Origin: Candidatus Microgenomates bacterium
Lineage (GTDB): Bacteria; Patescibacteriota; Microgenomatia; UBA8517
Assembly: GCA_049519355.1 (NCBI GenBank)
Contig: JBEKQV010000001.1
Span: forward strand, 150,408 to 214,407
Direction: 5' to 3'
Length of the DNA: 64,000 nt
A program made the translations under genes and the position numbers. Positions 4,338 to 38,340 of this stretch are shown one piece after another. Within the stretch, counting starts at the first letter, position 1. The number at the start of each line of letters is the position of its first letter. The notes under the pieces were generated by a model. That model saw only the letters and a list, made by a program, of their open reading frames with translations. It was not told the origin of the DNA and did no database searches.

Positions 4338-4342
4338 TTTAT

Positions 4343-4660
4343 ACTCTGGAAATTAGTAAGCCAGGTTCTGTTTCTCGATGATCATCCATCTACGCCCTCG
4401 GTCCTCGGGACTCGGGAAAGCGTCCTGATATCGTCCCATTCGGAGGTTGCAGCGGGGAGGATTGCCCCTTTTCACTCGTTTTCCCCAACCTTTAGGGTTA
4501 AGGACTCGACATAGTTTCTGTGGCTCTGTACTGGCCAAACCCAAGGTTACCCTTGAGCCTGTCTCCGGCTTACGCCGGACACCCTGCTTTCTGCTGCCTG
4601 GACTTTCCTCTACGCATGGGCAAGCCCACACGCAGCGATCATCCTTTCTCCAGAGTGAGG
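4343..4660 (-). ncRNA. rnpB: RNase P RNA (bacterial type A), about 318 nt
   Basis: Minus strand contains the P4 5' strand AGAGGAAAGTCCAGGC and the 3' strand ACAGAACCTGGCTTA, with CCAGG/CCTGG covariation relative to E. coli CCGGG/CCCGG. P1 pairs ACTCTGGA with TCCAGAGT and P2 pairs GGATGATC with GATCATC. A P3 hairpin GCGTGTGGGCTTGCCCATGCG is present. The overlapping ORFs 4329..4514, 4353..4631 and 4447..4710 are spurious. Confidence 0.9.
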
Positions 4661-21466: not shown

Positions 21467-21574
21467 GCCAAGGCCCGCCCGCATAAAAATATTTGATCTG
21501 CAAAAAACTCGGAGTGATCCCAAAAAGACCCCCGAGTTTTTTGTTGGCAAAAATCCAAGTGCTACAATGAATTA

Positions 21575-32202: not shown

Positions 32203-32997
32203 TTATTCTTTGTTTGGTTCAGTCTTTTTCTCTTCTGCCTTAGGTGCTTCAGCTTTTGGCGCCTCGGCCTTAGGAGCTTCCGCCCCTGCCTCAGCCGTTT
32301 CACCGGCCGGTGCTACACCTTCGACTACCTGGGCCACAACTTCATGCTCAAGTTCTTTAAGACTTCCGGATTTAATTTTCTTAATAGTAATAAGACTTCC
32401 AACCGTTCCCGGAATTTGTCCGGAAATCTCAACCTCACCGCTATCTTTTATTGAAATCACATGAAGATTTTTGATAGTAGTTTGTTCCGATCCCATTCTC
32501 CCGGCCATTCTTTTTCCTCTATAGACCCTTCCCGGAGTTGTTGTCTGTCCGATGGAACCCGGAGCACGCTCACGGTCGGATTGCCCGTGGGTCCTTGGTC
32601 CTCCCATGAAGTGGTGTCTTTTAACTACACCCGCGAAACCTTTTCCTTTTGATACCCCGGAAACGGCAATAACATCTCCTGCATTAAAAATGTCGGAGGC
32701 TTTTATCTCGTCTCCGACCTTAAATTCCGGCTCACTTTCAACCCTGACTTCCTGCAAATATCTCGGAAAATTTTTATCTTTTGAGGTTGACTTAAGATGT
32801 CCCTGAAGCGGTTTTGAAGTGTTTTTAGCTTTTTTGGAGAGAAATCCAAGCTGAACTGCCCAGTATCCGTCGCTGTCCATTTTTTTAATTTGGGTCACGA
32901 CGCAGGGCCCCGCCGTAACTAACGTAACGGGAATCCTAAAGCCTTCGACGAACGTCTGGCTGTTAACTCCTTTTGAACCTAAGATGGTATTAATCAT
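32203..32997 (-). CDS. rplC: 50S ribosomal protein L3 with about 55-aa low-complexity C-terminal extension
   Basis: L3 core (...GKGFAGVVKRHHFMGGPRTHGQSDRERAPGSIG...). Tail AEAGAEAPKAEAPKAEAPKAEEKKTEPNKE. Confidence 0.95.
   Translation of the reverse strand: MINTILGSKGVNSQTFVEGFRIPVTLVTAGPCVVTQIKKMDSDGYWAVQLGFLSKKAKNTSKPLQGHLKSTSKDKNFPRYLQEVRVESEPEFKVGDEIKASDIFNAGDVIAVSGVSKGKGFAGVVKRHHFMGGPRTHGQSDRERAPGSIGQTTTPGRVYRGKRMAGRMGSEQTTIKNLHVISIKDSGEVEISGQIPGTVGSLITIKKIKSGSLKELEHEVVAQVVEGVAPAGETAEAGAEAPKAEAPKAEAPKAEEKKTEPNKE
32236..32295. repeat. Four imperfect 15-nt tandem repeats (GCCTTAGGWGCTTCM) encoding (AEAPK)n in the L3 tail
   Basis: Units gccttaggtgcttca / gcttttggcgcctcg / gccttaggagcttcc / gcccctgcctcagcc. 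Confidence 0.4.
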
Positions 32998-33037
32998 TTT
33001 GGTTTTGGAACCCCCGGACTTTACGTCCCGGAGCCAG

Positions 33038-33071
33038 TAAACAACAAAAAAGGCGCCTTCAAAGGGCGCCT
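33038..33071 (-). terminator. Intrinsic terminator/attenuator in the leader of rplC
   Basis: Minus strand reads AGGCGCC-CTTTGAA-GGCGCCT followed by TTTTTTGTTGTTT, about 40 nt upstream of the rplC ATG and downstream of the promoter at 33142..33170. Confidence 0.55.
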
Positions 33072-33141
33072 AGGGGAGGCAACCTTATGAAGATCAACCG
33101 TGGCTAGTAACTGACATAACCACTTGCATGTTACGAGGGGA

Positions 33142-33170
33142 ATTATAACAAATGAAATGAACTTGCGCAA
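33142..33170 (-). promoter_or_regulatory. Sigma-70 consensus-like promoter TTGCGC-17-TATAAT inside the rpsJ-rplC junction
   Basis: Minus strand reads TTGCGCaagttcatttcatttgtTATAAT, about 140 nt upstream of rplC. Confidence 0.55.
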
Positions 33171-33180
33171 GAAGTGGCCT

Positions 33181-33230
33181 ATAAAACAAGAAGGGCGCTC
33201 ACCTGAATTCAAAAAATCAGGCAAGCGCCC
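33181..33230 (-). terminator. Long GC hairpin plus U-rich tract downstream of the 75-aa ORF
   Basis: Minus strand reads GGGCGCTTGCCTGA-ttttttgaat-TCAGGTGAGCGCCC followed by TTCTTGTTTTAT. Confidence 0.45.
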
Positions 33231-33242
33231 ATCTCGTACTTT
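33231..33242. repeat. Inverted copy of the 12-mer AAAGTACGAGAT (core TATCTCGTA motif)
   Basis: Plus strand reads atctcgtacttt, which is the exact reverse complement of 33509..33520. Together the two copies flank the 75-aa ORF. Confidence 0.55.
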
Positions 33243-33260
33243 CTATTCTTTTTTTGGGTC

Positions 33261-33488
33261 TTAGGCCTCAACGGCGAGGGGTACGTCAAGAATCTTGGCG
33301 ACATCCTCGGCAACGAAATTGCCGTAGCCGTGGGGAACACGGTGCAAACCGACTGGGTTCTTTTTAACCCAAAAATCGGCTCTCAGCTGCCGGCCGTCAG
33401 GTAGAATCATACTGCATTTTTCGCAGGCGGCTGTATCAACCCAATAGGTTTTGCCTTCAAAAACAAACTTGATTTGTCGATTAGGCAT
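33261..33488 (-). CDS. Hypothetical protein (75 aa), higher GC, inserted between rpsJ and rplC
   Basis: GGAGG SD 6 nt upstream of ATG 33488. Product MPNRQIKFVFEGKTYWVDTAACEKCSMILPDGRQLRADFWVKKNPVGLHRVPHGYGNFVAEDVAKILDVPLAVEA. About 48% GC, with its own terminator. Confidence 0.5.
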   Translation of the reverse strand: MPNRQIKFVFEGKTYWVDTAACEKCSMILPDGRQLRADFWVKKNPVGLHRVPHGYGNFVAEDVAKILDVPLAVEA

Positions 33489-33508
33489 ACCGTCCTCCAC
33501 AAATTTAC

Positions 33509-33544
33509 AAAGTACGAGATACCCTCGTAAGGATTTACGAGATA
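33509..33544. repeat. Two direct copies of TATCTCGTA (minus-strand sense) plus an embedded 7-bp hairpin, upstream of the 75-aa ORF
   Basis: Plus strand aaagtacgagat (33509..33520), hairpin ctcgtaa-ggat-ttacgag (33524..33541), and a second tacgagata at 33536..33544. Confidence 0.5.
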
Positions 33545-33592
33545 ACTGGAAATATACGTCAAAAATGAAGGAAAAGCAAATTATGGGATAAC

Positions 33593-33901
33593 TTACATCT
33601 TTATTTCAATGGAGACTCCGGCCGGAAGGTCGAGGTTACCAAGGGAATCGACTGTACGGGGGCTCGGGTCCAAAATATCTATCAGTCTTTTATGCACCAA
33701 AATTTCGTAGTGTTCTTGTGCATCCTTATCTGTAAATGGAGATTCCTTGATGGCCATCATCGTCCTGGCGGTGGGAAGCGGAATGGGTCCGATTATTTTC
33801 GCACCAGTAGCTAAAGCGGTATCTACTATCTTTGCTGCCGCTTCGTCCAGAACTCTATGATCGTAACTTTTGAGTTTTACTCTAAGTCTTGAGCTTGCCA
33901 T
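33593..33901 (-). CDS. rpsJ: 30S ribosomal protein S10
   Basis: [40 protein letters not shown]. Confidence 0.95.
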
Positions 33902-33917
33902 CTTAATGTGCCTAACC

Positions 33918-35111
33918 TTATGCGATTATCTTTGTTATTACACCATCGCCAACTGTGTGTCCACCTTCACGAATTGCAAATCTAAATCCTTCCTCCATTG
34001 CAACCGGCTGAATGAGTTTGATTTTCATCTTGGCATTATCCCCGGGCATAACCATCTCAATTCCTTCCGGAAGAGTAGCCTCACCGGTAATATCTGCTGT
34101 CTTAATATAGAACTGCGGTTTGTAACCTGTGAAGAACGGGGTATGACGTCCGCCTTCCTCTTTGCTCAAAATATAAACTTCAGCCTCAAATTCGGTATGA
34201 GGAGTAAGGCTACCCGGTTTGCAAAGAACTTGACCGCGCTCAACCTGATCCTTTTCAACTCCCCTAAGAAGGACTCCGATATTGTCTCCCGCCATGGCTT
34301 CATCGAGAGTTTTTCTGAACATCTCCAAGCCCGTTGCAACTGATTTTTGGGTAGGTTTAAGTCCCACTATTTCGACTTCCTCGTTAACCTTAATCTTGCC
34401 TCTATCAACTCTTCCCGTAACAACCGTCCCACGGCCTTGAATTGTAAATACATCCTCAATTGCCATCAGGAACGGTTTATCTACGTCACGTACCGGATCC
34501 GGGATATAATTATCTACCGCATCCATAAGGGCCATTATTTGCTTTTCCGCCTCAGGGTCCCCCTCAACAGCCTTCAAAGCGGATCCTCTAATGACAGGCA
34601 CTTCATCTCCCGGATAACCGTATTTCTTAAGAAGTTCCCTTACATCCGCCTCAACCAAATCGATAAGTTCGGGGTCGTCAACCATGTCGACTTTATTAAG
34701 AAAAACTACAATTGCCGGAACGTTAACCTGTTTGGCCAAAATAACATGCTCTCTGGTTTGAGGCATAGGCCCATCTGCGGCCGAGACCACTAAAATGGCA
34801 CCATCCATCTGGGCGGCACCCGTAATCATATTCTTGATGTAATCTGCGTGTCCTGGAGCATCTATGTGGGCGTAGTGGCGTTTCTTGGTTTCGTATTCCT
34901 GATGGGAGAGGTTGATGGTAACTCCTCTTTCTCTTTCTTCCGGCGCGGAATCAATTTCTTCGTATTTCTTGGCAACAGCCAAACCCTGTTTGGCCAAAAC
35001 CATAGTAATAGCTGAGGTTAAAGTGGTCTTACCGTGGTCAACATGGCCAATAGTGCCAATATTGACGTGCGGTTTTGTTCTTTCGTATTTTTTCTTTGCT
35101 TCTCCTGCCAT
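33918..35111 (-). CDS. tuf: Elongation factor Tu
   Basis: [18 protein letters not shown] and NKVD GTPase motifs; 397 aa. Confidence 0.97.
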
Positions 35112-37887: not shown

Positions 37888-38340
37888 CTAAGCTGCAGCT
37901 GCGGGGGCTTTAGGAGCAGGTTTTGCTCCGCCCTGTCCCTTTTTCGCTCCATATCTACTTCTTCCTGATTGCCTACCGGCAACTCCGGTTGTGTCGTATT
38001 TACCTCTAACGATATGATACTTTACTCCTGGAAGATCCTTAACACGTCCACCCCTGACCATAACGATTGAATGCTCCGCAAGTTCGTGGCCTTCTCCCGG
38101 AATGTAAGCCGTAATTTCCTGCTTATTCGATAAACGAACCCTTGCAACCTTCCTGAGAGCCGAGTTCGGTTTTTTCGGAGTCATTGTACGGACCGCTAAA
38201 ACTACCCCTCTTTTGAAAGAAGAGTGACTTTCGGAAAATTTACGATCCTTGGCATTAAACCATCTCTTTAGAGCTGTTGTTTTCGTTTTCTTAACAATCC
38301 TTTTTCTACCTTTTCTTGTAAGTTGGTTTATTGTCGGCAT
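37888..38340 (-). CDS. rpsL: 30S ribosomal protein S12 with Ala/Lys-rich C-terminal tail
   Basis: [13 protein letters not shown]... with [18 protein letters not shown]. Tail [20 protein letters not shown]. Confidence 0.95.

What the first reader, a model, noticed from the sequence alone, without database searches (positions are those of the whole stretch)
33181..33545. Repeat-flanked mini-cassette with a higher-GC 75-aa orphan gene inserted between rpsJ and rplC
rpsJ is normally followed directly by rplC, but here about 600 bp intervene. The 75-aa ORF (33261..33488) has its own GGAGG SD and its own long-hairpin terminator, and is about 48% GC. It is bracketed by a perfect 12-bp inverted repeat (atctcgtacttt at 33231..33242 and aaagtacgagat at 33509..33520). 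The 9-mer TATCTCGTA occurs three times: two direct copies upstream and one inverted copy downstream, with an extra 7-bp hairpin embedded upstream. A perfect 12-bp inverted repeat within 300 bp is unlikely by chance. The pattern fits either an operator array for a DNA-binding regulator or the termini of a small inserted element.
Basis: seen in the sequence. Interest (0 to 1): 0.65.

Follow-up and report, generated by a model that had tools for sequence, protein, structure and literature searches.

The report
Small accessory gene inserted after rpsJ
A 75-amino-acid gene with its own likely promoter and terminator was inserted, in this one Woesebacteria species only, at a boundary between ribosomal-protein operons where related species carry many different extra genes; the flanking repeats are not the ends of a mobile element and are barely more than chance.

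Summary
All genes are on the minus strand: rpsJ (33593-33901), a 75-aa ORF with a GGAGG SD (33261-33488), a strong terminator hairpin, a 12/12 (14/15) inverted repeat, then rplC (32203-32997).

The organism is a Candidatus Woesebacteria (Patescibacteria). Three of its closest relatives (L3 84-86% identical) have an empty site: rpsJ stop, 12 nt, then a conserved rplC promoter, leader and terminator-like hairpin. The window therefore carries a ~407-bp insertion (33186-33592). It is fixed in this species.

In related Microgenomates the same spacer runs from ~75 bp to 3.3 kb and holds unrelated cargo, so it is an insertion hotspot at an operon boundary.

The ORF is not an orphan. It belongs to an uncharacterised small-protein family whose named members are Patescibacteria (59 profile hits; AF2 pLDDT 92.8; no Pfam, PHROG, PADLOC or fold match).

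The inverted-repeat arms lie 72 and 45 nt inside the insert. They are single-copy and are absent from other family loci. At window scale they are expected by chance (about 2 such repeats per 64 kb; composite pattern p≈0.06).

Verdict: an ordinary lineage-specific gene gain with suggestive but unproven RNA-level repeats. The adjacent conserved rplC leader is the more interesting feature.

The parts
33593..33901 (-). rpsJ (ribosomal protein S10), the last gene before the insert
   Evidence: Pfam Ribosomal_S10, E 3e-29; ORF list
33186..33592 (-). Species-specific inserted segment (~407 bp). It is absent from the empty sites of the closest relatives. It runs from the first base after the rpsJ stop codon to the last base of the terminator stem.
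   Evidence: Alignment A4 with L095, L096, L098 and L010. Present in all 20-22 contigs of this species that were read. No DNA similarity elsewhere.
33551..33579 (-). Candidate sigma-70-type promoter for the ORF, read by eye: TTGCTT (33574-33579), 17 nt, TATATT (33551-33556). An alternative is TTGAAA-18-CATAAT at 33580-33609.
   Evidence: Direct reading; the alternative was reported by the scan. Not experimentally supported. There is no terminator between rpsJ and the ORF, so read-through from tuf-rpsJ is also likely.
33523..33542 (-). 5'-UTR hairpin UCUCGUAA-AUCC-UUACGAGG (perfect 7-4-7 palindrome at DNA level)
   Evidence: Present in the MFE and centroid folds. The 5'UTR as a whole is no more stable than shuffles (z = -0.59).
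33536..33544 (-). Direct repeat copy 1, TATCTCGTA
33506..33521 (-). Direct repeat copy 2 (TATCTCGTA, 33513-33521), which overlaps the 5' arm of the inverted repeat (ATCTCGTACTTTGTA, 33506-33520)
33261..33488 (-). 75-aa gene (SD GGAGG at 33494-33498). It is a member of an uncharacterised small-protein family whose named members are Patescibacteria, with the motif FEGxxYxV...LPDGRxL...W.
   Evidence: phmmer against 1.8 billion representatives: 22 hits, with E 2e-8 to 1e-5 to 75-82-aa proteins. Alignments A1 and A2. Profile search: 59 members. AF2 pLDDT 92.8.
33231..33245 (-). 3' arm of the inverted repeat (TAGAAAGTACGAGAT). Its ACGAGA also forms the base of the terminator stem.
33186..33237 (-). 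Long terminator hairpin (14 + 6 bp) followed by UUUUAU; it ends the ORF transcript and any tuf-rpsJ read-through
   Evidence: -34.6 kcal/mol, z = -6.7, 0 of 200 shuffles fold as well; partly picked up by the scan
33142..33170 (-). Conserved rplC-operon promoter TTGCGC-17-TGtTATAAT (ancestral, not part of the insert)
   Evidence: Conserved in L008-L011, L015-L017, L035 and L095-L098
32998..33135 (-). Conserved rplC leader (ancestral). It has a 5' hairpin and mini-ORF (33094-33129, MQVVMSVTSHG), a terminator-like hairpin with a T-run (33041-33071), and a third hairpin just before the rplC ATG.
   Evidence: 6 of 16 predicted pairs show compensatory changes. No Rfam family matches.
32203..32997 (-). 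rplC (ribosomal protein L3)
   Evidence: Pfam Ribosomal_L3

Best explanation
The region is a lineage-specific gene gain at an operon boundary, not a repeat-bounded mobile cassette.

In Woesebacteria and other Microgenomates, rpsJ ends one transcription unit. rplC starts another, with its own conserved promoter, leader and terminator-like attenuator. The few bases between the rpsJ stop codon and the rplC promoter tolerate insertions and turn over quickly between relatives.

In this species a ~407-bp segment landed there and became fixed. It is a complete monocistronic unit: promoter-like hexamers, a 5'UTR with a terminal hairpin, SD, a 75-aa ORF and a very stable terminator.

The ORF encodes a real, well-folded, mostly beta-strand small protein. 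It belongs to an uncharacterised family whose named members are Patescibacteria; the domain also occurs in tandem arrays. Its biochemical role is unknown.

Inferred, not shown:
- The gene is transcribed both from its own promoter and by read-through from the highly expressed tuf-rpsJ unit.
- Its terminator now stops that read-through before the rplC promoter and leader.
- The short repeats act, if they act at all, in the RNA: as a 5'-terminal stem-loop, and as a 5'UTR/3'UTR duplex that competes with the base of the terminator stem. They do not act as element termini.
- They may equally be by-products with no function.
For: 1. Insertion. Three of the closest relatives found (L3 84-86% identical: L095, L096, L098) have rpsJ stop, 12 nt, rplC promoter, a spacer of 188-189 nt. 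L010 (73%) has the same arrangement.
2. Fixation. All 20-22 contigs of this species that were read carry the ORF, and three aligned copies differ at 1 of 611 nt.
3. Hotspot.
- In the loci the spacer runs from 75 nt to 3.3 kb. Cargo includes FtsJ-like methyltransferases, HicAB-like and other small gene pairs, a transposase-like ORF and P-type-ATPase-like genes.
- Pfam confirms DUF5343, epimerase, GT87, Nfu_N-like, FtsJ and Fic among the cargo.
- L097 (83%) carries a different 331-aa gene at the site.
- L111, equally related by its rpsJ 3' end (84% nt), carries a Flp-like ORF plus a family member only 32% identical to this ORF.
- Chloroflexi outgroups have 30-100-nt spacers.
4. Real gene. Family hits, conserved motif, AF2 pLDDT 92.8 and pTM 0.79, SD and ATG.
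5. Terminator. -34.6 kcal/mol, z = -6.7. Its last paired base (33186) is the right edge of the insert.
6. Repeats are not termini. The arms are internal to the insert, single-copy, and there is no DNA similarity of the insert elsewhere.
7. RNA pairing is energetically plausible. Forcing the 15-bp 5'/3' helix costs 1.6 kcal/mol, and its ensemble probability is about 0.11.
Against: - No transcript data exist. The promoters are consensus readings: one scores 10/12 in the scan, and the other fails the scan's 4-of-6 rule.
- The 5'UTR is no more structured than shuffles (z = -0.59), and the MFE fold does not use the long-range helix.
- No sequence variation is available within the species, so covariation cannot be tested.
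- The repeat pattern is marginal window-wide (p about 0.06), so any functional reading of it is weak.
- The presence of a second family member downstream of rpsJ in L111 allows an alternative history: old residence followed by loss. It also raises the possibility of a functional link to the ribosomal neighbourhood.
- The protein's function is not established.
Confidence: 0.65

Rival explanations
1. Old resident gene. A member of this small-protein family was already present downstream of rpsJ in the common ancestor of this genus-level clade. It diverged very fast and was lost precisely in several lineages. The window shows retention, not gain.
For: L111 is as close to the window as the empty-site relatives (84% nt in the rpsJ 3' end). 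It has a family member in the same spacer. Two of about 16 family loci with known context lie downstream of rpsJ.
Against: - The two proteins are only 32% identical, whereas S10 is 98% identical over the 55 residues compared.
- Their neighbours differ: L111 has a Flp-like ORF and a reverse-strand gene.
- The empty site (stop, 12 nt, promoter) is the same in L095, L096, L098 and the more distant L010, so several base-precise deletions would be needed.
- No family member is found in the 80 GTDB relatives' loci.
Confidence: 0.12
2. Operator array. The two direct TATCTCGTA copies, the 7-4-7 palindrome and the inverted downstream copy are binding sites for a DNA-binding regulator that controls the ORF. 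Through the CCCTCGTAA at the start of the rplC leader, it may also control the rplC promoter.
For: The palindrome CTCGTAA-N4-TTACGAG and both direct copies lie just downstream of the candidate -10 box, a typical repressor position. A related CCTCGTAA lies just downstream of the rplC -10 box. Locally the inverted repeat beats 200 of 200 shuffles.
Against: - No regulator gene is in the insert, and the 75-aa protein has no HTH or RHH domain and is mostly beta-strand.
- Outside this spacer the 8-mer occurs only once in the window, inside a coding region.
- The pattern is not significant window-wide.
- Other family loci show no comparable repeats.
- The CCTCGTAA at the rplC leader is ancestral. It is present in relatives that lack the insert.
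Confidence: 0.1
3. Miniature mobile element. The 15-bp inverted repeats are terminal inverted repeats of a small non-autonomous element (33231-33520) that carries the ORF as cargo.
For: A 14/15 inverted repeat symmetrically flanks an ORF. The locus is an insertion relative to relatives. The ORF's GC3 is about 10-20 points above its neighbours.
Against: - The segment absent from the empty sites is 33186-33592, so 72 nt and 45 nt of insert-specific DNA lie outside the arms.
- No target-site duplication is seen at either the arm or the insert boundaries.
- There are no other copies in the window, in 20 kb of a 440-kb contig of the same species, or in any fetched locus.
- No transposase is present.
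- Homologous genes elsewhere lack such repeats.
- About 2 such inverted repeats are expected by chance per 64 kb.
Confidence: 0.05
4. Pure chance. The repeats have no function and no historical meaning. Only the gene insertion is real.
For: Window-wide nulls: 12-nt inverted repeats are expected about 2.06 times. Maximal k-mer clusters in simulations equal or exceed the observed one. The composite pattern occurs in 5.9% of simulations. The 5'UTR fold is not unusual.
Against: Both arms fall in the two short UTRs of one gene (0 of 200 local shuffles). The 3' arm is part of the terminator stem. Five copies of CTCGTA/TACGAG lie within 415 nt (listing).
Confidence: 0.3

Closest known systems
Integration hotspots ('islets') between conserved core genes, where unrelated accessory genes accumulate (general concept from comparative genomics; from my own knowledge)
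   Same: The flanking core genes (rpsJ, rplC) are fixed while the content between them varies from 0 to about 3 kb across close relatives. Cargo is functionally unrelated, including a Pfam-confirmed Fic gene, toxin-antitoxin-like gene pairs and a transposase-like ORF identified by eye.
   Different: The site is inside the normally contiguous S10 ribosomal-protein cluster. The inserts are tiny (one to three genes). No tRNA, integrase or recombinase marks the site.
E. coli S10 operon leader (L4-mediated transcription attenuation and translational control) and the Firmicutes S10 r-leader (from my own knowledge; listed as known r-leaders in PMC7247131)
   Same: The ancestral part of the spacer is a promoter plus a structured leader with a terminator-like hairpin, directly upstream of the rplC-rplD-rplW-rplB... 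genes. It is conserved across many Patescibacteria loci.
   Different: It lies upstream of rplC, not rpsJ. There is no sequence or Rfam match. It contains a conserved 7-11-codon mini-ORF. The ligand is unknown.
MITEs and other small non-autonomous transposable elements
   Same: A short segment with an inverted repeat, present in one lineage and absent from relatives.
   Different: The inverted repeats are not at the insertion boundaries. The element is single-copy, has no target-site duplication, and carries a conserved-family protein gene with a promoter and terminator.
5'-terminal stem-loop mRNA stabilisers (for example the E. coli ompA 5'UTR and B. subtilis 5' stem-loops that protect against RNase J/Y; from my own knowledge)
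   Same: A 7-8-bp hairpin lies within a few nucleotides of the predicted 5' end of the ORF transcript.
   Different: The transcript 5' end is not mapped, and the hairpin is short. No stabilising function has been tested.

Membership tests
MITE / IS-type element with terminal inverted repeats | Inverted repeats lie at the ends of the segment that is present or absent between genomes | tested here: not met
   The insert is 33186-33592 by alignment with the empty sites. The arms at 33231-33245 and 33506-33520 are internal.
MITE / IS-type element with terminal inverted repeats | Target-site duplication flanking the element | tested here: not met
   No direct repeat is seen at the arm boundaries (gcgccc|ATCTCG...CGAGAT|accctc) or at the insert boundaries.
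MITE / IS-type element with terminal inverted repeats | Multiple copies in the genome or in related genomes | tested here: not met
   The 12-mer occurs only at this locus in the window and only in same-species loci among 111 loci. blastn of the insert finds nothing. The whole genome (about 1 Mb) was not available.
Integron gene cassette | attC recombination site with R''/R' core (GTTRRRY) at the 3' end of the cassette, plus an integron integrase | tested here: not met
   The 3' hairpin is followed by GTTTTAT, which does not match GTTRRRY. No integrase lies in the flanking ribosomal genes. Integrases elsewhere in the genome were not searched.
Autoregulated repressor with operator array | The encoded protein has a DNA-binding fold (HTH, RHH and similar) | tested here: not met
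   No Pfam or NCBIfam domain. The AF2 model has seven short strands and two short helices. No fold match to DNA-binding proteins.
Autoregulated repressor with operator array | Palindromic or repeated sites overlapping the promoter or transcription start | tested here: inconclusive
   A 7-4-7 palindrome and two direct 9-mers lie just downstream of the candidate -10 box. The promoter is unmapped and the pattern is not significant window-wide.
Uncharacterised small-protein family, named members Patescibacteria (FEG..Y / LPDGR / W motif; no Pfam accession) | Significant sequence similarity over the whole ~75-aa domain, and the conserved motif residues | tested here: met
   phmmer E 2e-8 (P0005), 1e-7 (P0006) and others over residues 1-74. 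Invariant I6, Y15, L29, P30 and W40. The window protein lacks the usual ES-PPQP segment.
Canonical S10 operon (rpsJ immediately followed by, and co-transcribed with, rplC) | A short rpsJ-rplC spacer without a promoter or terminator | tested here: not met
   Even the empty sites carry a conserved promoter, a leader and a terminator-like hairpin (about 188 nt). Chloroflexi outgroups do have 30-100-nt spacers.
Intrinsic (rho-independent) terminator | A stable GC-rich hairpin followed by a U-rich tract | tested here: met
   33186-33237, -34.6 kcal/mol, z = -6.7, followed by UUUUAU. The U-tract is short and interrupted.
Type II toxin-antitoxin pair | Two adjacent small co-transcribed genes | tested here: not met
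   There is a single ORF in the insert. No PADLOC or Pfam TA hit.

The most novel reading that the evidence does not exclude
The small-protein family is a ribosome- or translation-associated factor that is repeatedly recruited to the tuf-rpsJ transcription unit. Under this reading it was recruited independently in this species and in L111, and the 5'UTR/3'UTR complementarity is a processing or stability device that releases it from the polycistronic transcript. This would make it a new lineage-specific component or regulator of the reduced Patescibacteria translation apparatus.
Probability: 0.06. Interest if true: 0.7.

Novelty: new member of a known kind. Interest (0 to 1): 0.3.

Why it matters
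The cassette itself is a routine gene gain. It matters mainly as a well-resolved example, with empty sites in hand, of how quickly small genes turn over at a permissive site inside the most conserved gene cluster of a reduced Patescibacteria genome.

Two by-products could matter more:

1. The analysis defines a confidently folding small-protein family with no annotation and no detectable fold relatives. All members that sources name are Patescibacteria.
2. It shows that in Microgenomates the rplC-led ribosomal operon has its own conserved promoter, a leader with a mini-ORF, and a terminator-like hairpin. This is a candidate attenuator that matches no Rfam family and would be directly testable.

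Tried and rejected
1. Promoter duplication. The idea was that the ORF's promoter region is a diverged duplicate of the rplC promoter. The local alignment score was 22 against a null of 18.4 ± 3.2, and 297 of 2000 shuffles scored as high. Rejected as not significant.
2. ORF-flanking inverted repeats as a family feature. Tested on about 14 family loci. Only L091 shows a weak 14-nt match (2 of 100 shuffles), which is expected given the number of tests. Rejected.
3. A shared 3'UTR 14-mer (AAAAAGAATAGAAA) between the window and L091. It is A-rich, E about 1 in a small database, and was treated as chance.
4. Zn/Cys-His site. C22 and C25 are not conserved in the family; most members have AYDKN there. 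Only H50 is mostly conserved. The model's coordinates could not be inspected.
5. Phage origin. No family member was found in IMG/VR contigs, and there is no PHROG hit.
6. Defence-system component. There is no PADLOC hit beyond one E = 0.008 match for one member.
7. Known RNA family in the spacer. Rfam in gathering and E-value modes gave only meaningless miRNA-like hits to the terminator hairpin.
8. Strain-level presence/absence polymorphism. All contigs with the identical L3 carry the ORF.
9. AFDB Foldseek was unavailable. The first metagenome scan with alignment A2 failed because it had no conserved stretch.
10. An apparently missing rpsL in the gene calls of L002. S12 is present at 37888-38340; the gene call had simply missed it.
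Full report
**What is there**

All genes in this part of the window are on the minus strand. The order is fusA, tuf (33918-35111), rpsJ (33593-33901), a 75-aa ORF (33261-33488), rplC (32203-32997), then rplD and rplW. The rpsJ-rplC spacer is 595 bp.

- The ORF starts at the ATG at 33488, five bases after GGAGG (33494-33498).
- The inverted repeat is 12/12 perfect (33231-33242 / 33509-33520) and extends to 14/15.
- TATCTCGTA occurs twice, 23 nt apart, in the 5' region. The downstream inverted copy matches 8 of 9.
- A 7-4-7 palindrome, CTCGTAA-ATCC-TTACGAG, lies between the two direct copies.
- After the stop codon there is a 52-nt hairpin (33186-33237; -34.6 kcal/mol, z = -6.7) followed by UUUUAU.
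- The ORF is 50% GC against 42.4% for the window (96th percentile). GC3 is 0.53 against 0.32-0.44 in neighbouring genes.

**Is it more than chance?**

Locally it is. No shuffle of the two 150-nt flanks (0 of 200) reaches a 12-nt perfect inverted repeat.

On that scale:
- The window holds 2 perfect inverted repeats of 12 nt or more within 320 nt. First-order Markov simulations give a mean of 2.06, and 89% have at least one.
- Clusters of 6- to 8-mers as dense as the CTCGTA/TACGAG cluster are reached or exceeded in all simulations.
- The composite pattern (an inverted repeat of 12 nt or more, 60-320 nt apart, plus a further 9-mer copy within 60 nt of an arm) appears in 41 of 697 simulations, about 0.06.

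The repeats are suggestive because of where they sit, in the two UTRs of one gene. They are not statistically compelling.

**Organism and relatives**

L3 and S10 place the window in Candidatus Woesebacteria (Patescibacteria, Microgenomates). The best GTDB species representative has L3 at 79% identity.

The identical 75-aa protein is found on at least 22 contigs from many samples, always between rpsJ and rplC. All 20 contigs read that carry the identical L3 also carry the ORF. Three aligned copies differ at 1 of 611 positions. The insertion is therefore fixed in the species, and the data hold no variation that could test RNA pairing.

**Empty sites**

The closest relatives found by protein search have L3 at 83-86% identity.
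- L095, L096 and L098 have rpsJ, a 188-189-nt spacer, then rplC.
- L097 has a different 331-aa gene with no Pfam match at the same place.

Alignment A4 shows that the empty site is: rpsJ stop, 12 nt (TTTTTAGCCTCT), then a promoter (CTTGCG-17-TGtTATAAT) and a leader that is nearly identical to window 33185-32998. The more distant L010 (73%) has the same arrangement.

The window therefore carries an insertion of about 407 bp, from the base after the rpsJ stop (33592) to the last paired base of the big hairpin (33186). The inverted-repeat arms lie 72 and 45 nt inside this segment, so they do not delimit what was inserted. No target-site duplication is visible.

The 12-mer occurs nowhere else in the window, nor in any of the 104 loci from other organisms. 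blastn of the whole insert against everything fetched finds only short chance matches.

**A hotspot**

Among the GTDB loci the rpsJ-rplC distance ranges from about 75 nt to 3.3 kb in Patescibacteria. It is only 30-100 nt in the Chloroflexi outgroups.

The cargo is unrelated from one lineage to the next:
- DUF5343, an epimerase and a GT87 glycosyltransferase (L008).
- Nfu_N-like small proteins (L009, L013).
- FtsJ-like methyltransferases (L014, L016, L017).
- A Fic protein (L018).
- HicAB-like and other toxin-antitoxin-like pairs, a transposase-like ORF and P-type ATPases, identified by eye.

The short contig L111 has an rpsJ 3' end as close to the window (84% nt) as the empty-site relatives are. 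After rpsJ it carries a promoter, a Flp-pilin-like ORF, a member of the same small-protein family that is only 32% identical to the window protein, a terminator and a reverse-strand gene.

Within one genus-level clade the site thus shows at least five states:
1. Empty (L095, L096, L098).
2. The window's 75-aa gene.
3. The L111 set (Flp-like ORF, divergent family member, reverse-strand gene).
4. The 331-aa gene of L097.
5. The 3.3-kb cargo of L008.

The simplest reading is that rpsJ ends one transcription unit and rplC begins another, so the junction tolerates insertions.

**The protein**

The first word-indexed search found only the species itself. Exhaustive phmmer against 1.8 billion representatives then found 22 proteins. 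These include 72-85-aa proteins aligned end to end (E 2e-8 to 1e-3) and proteins with 2-8 tandem copies of the domain.

The family motif is I-x-F-x-[FY]-E-G-x-x-Y-x-V ... A-Y ... I-V-L-P-D-G-R-x-L-E ... W-L-E-S-x-P-P-Q-P-x-G-L-H. The window protein keeps the core residues (I6, Y15, L29, P30, W40) but lacks the ES-PPQP segment.

- A profile search gave 59 members. All members that sources name are Patescibacteria (Gottesmanbacteria, Vogelbacteria, 'Patescibacteria group').
- No member matches Pfam, NCBIfam, PHROGs or PADLOC, and none is on IMG/VR viral contigs.
- AlphaFold2 with the family alignment gives pLDDT 92.8 and pTM 0.79: seven short strands and two short helices.
- One tandem-repeat member also has PKD/Ig domains.
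- Genomic contexts of other members are heterogeneous, and the genes are mostly stand-alone.
- The Cys residues that suggested a metal site are not conserved.

The gene is real and the fold is confident. Its function cannot be inferred.

**How the cassette probably works**

The following is shown:
- An SD and ATG.
- No terminator between rpsJ and the ORF.
- Two candidate promoters: TTGAAA-18-CATAAT at 33580-33609 from the scan, and TTGCTT-17-TATATT at 33551-33579 by eye.
- A very stable terminator at the insert's right edge.

The following is inferred:
- The ORF is expressed both from its own promoter and by read-through from tuf-rpsJ.
- Its terminator now ends those transcripts upstream of the rplC promoter. 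In empty-site relatives, rpsJ transcripts would run straight into the rplC leader.

The repeats all fall in the transcript. The first forms an 8-bp hairpin near the predicted 5' end. The second can pair with the 3'UTR copy. Forcing that 15-bp helix costs only 1.6 kcal/mol (-132.0 against -133.6), and its ensemble probability is about 0.11. The ACGAGA of the 3' copy also forms the base of the terminator stem.

This fits an RNA-level role in stability, processing or modulation of termination, but it is not evidence for one. The 5'UTR is no more stable than shuffles. Other family loci lack such complementarity.

**Alternatives**

- A mobile element with terminal inverted repeats is disfavoured for the reasons given above.
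- An operator array remains possible from position alone. But no DNA-binding protein is encoded, the motif is not found at other promoters in the window, and the related CCCTCGTAA at the rplC transcript start is ancestral.
- An old resident gene with repeated precise loss is less parsimonious than gain, given identical empty sites in four lineages. L111 keeps this option alive.
- A duplication origin for the ORF's promoter was tested and is not significant.

The ancestral 188 nt upstream of rplC is conserved across Woesebacteria. It contains:
- A promoter.
- A 5' hairpin whose stem changes in a compensatory way (GTGG/CCAC, GAGG/CCTC, GGTGAT/ATCACC).
- A 7-11-codon mini-ORF. Examples are MQVVMSVTSHG; MEVSVTT, MEVFLIK and MEVSYIN; and, in other Microgenomates loci including Levybacteria-labelled ones, M..KEV.L.T.
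- A GC-rich hairpin with a T-run (33041-33071).
- A further hairpin before the start codon. In the RNAalifold consensus, 6 of 16 predicted pairs show compensatory changes.

A terminator-like hairpin 10-66 nt upstream of rplC is present in nearly all Patescibacteria loci fetched and in none of the Chloroflexi loci. Roizmanbacteria-type leaders show an obvious alternative pairing (CAGATTGG ... CCCCAATCTGGGG).

Rfam has no match. A survey of ribosomal leaders lists L4-associated leaders upstream of rplC only for Archaeoglobi and S10 leaders only for Firmicutes; rpsJ, Microgenomates and candidate phyla are not mentioned in it (PMC7247131).

This looks like an attenuator for the rplC-led operon and deserves its own study.

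**Verdict**

What is there is a species-specific gain of a small gene of an uncharacterised protein family, at a recurrent insertion hotspot between two ribosomal transcription units. The repeats are of doubtful significance. Interest is modest (0.3), and the novelty class is a new member of a known kind.

Noticed in passing
window 32998-33170 (minus strand); also L008-L011, L015-L017, L035, L095-L098 and most other Patescibacteria loci, upstream of rplC: A conserved promoter (TTGCG-17-TGnTATAAT) and structured leader lie upstream of rplC. The leader has a 5' hairpin with compensatory changes, a 7-11-codon mini-ORF (MQVVMSVTSHG / MEVxxxx / M..KEV.L.T), a terminator-like hairpin with a T-run 10-66 nt before the ATG, and a further hairpin with covariation. 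This is a candidate attenuator or ribosomal-protein leader of the rplC-rplD... operon. It has no Rfam match and is absent from the Chloroflexi outgroups.
   Followed up: partly
L008-L087, L095-L098, L111: the spacer between rpsJ and rplC: In Microgenomates the rpsJ-rplC junction is an insertion hotspot, with spacers from 75 nt to 3.3 kb. Pfam-confirmed cargo: FtsJ-like methyltransferase, Fic, DUF5343, GT87, epimerase and Nfu_N-like proteins. Identified by eye only: toxin-antitoxin-like pairs, a transposase-like ORF and P-type-ATPase-like genes. There are at least five different states within one genus-level clade.
   Followed up: partly
L111 1-1358 (JGI Ga0182027_10482357): A related Woesebacterium has the following downstream of rpsJ: a promoter, a 66-aa Flp-pilin-like ORF (359-559), a divergent member of the same small-protein family (642-869, 32% identical to the window protein) and a terminator. 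This is a second occurrence of the family at the same junction.
   Followed up: partly
L088 / L089 / L090 (Gottesmanbacteria contigs), around 6001-8400 of L088: The family member P0023 sits in a strain-variable stretch of small hypothetical genes next to an MmeI-type restriction-modification gene. A second 81-aa gene lies on the opposite strand about 2 kb away, and the content between the two differs among the three contigs.
   Followed up: no
window 32203-32310 (C-terminus of L3) and 37888-37940 (C-terminus of S12): Both ribosomal proteins carry Ala/Pro/Lys/Glu-rich low-complexity C-terminal tails: L3 has ...AEAGAEAPKAEAPKAEAPKAEEKKTEPNKE and S12 has ...[18 protein letters not shown]. The L3 tail includes a tandem EAPKA repeat.
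   Followed up: no
window 4341-4654 (minus strand): A bacterial RNase P class A RNA scores only just above Rfam's gathering threshold (104.6 against 100 bits). It is the only Rfam family found in the window.
   Followed up: no
L091 6238-6251 and 6823-6839: The 3'UTR of the distant family member P0019 shares the 14-mer AAAAAGAATAGAAA with the window's 3'UTR (33243-33256) and is complementary to its own 5'UTR (14 nt with one G-U). A 17-nt perfect match to the window insert also lies 600 nt further on. This is probably chance in A-rich sequence.
   Followed up: partly
window 21501-21543: This is the only other perfect inverted repeat of 12 nt or more within 320 nt in the window (CAAAAAACTCGG, arm starts 31 nt apart). 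It is a hairpin, possibly a terminator.
   Followed up: no
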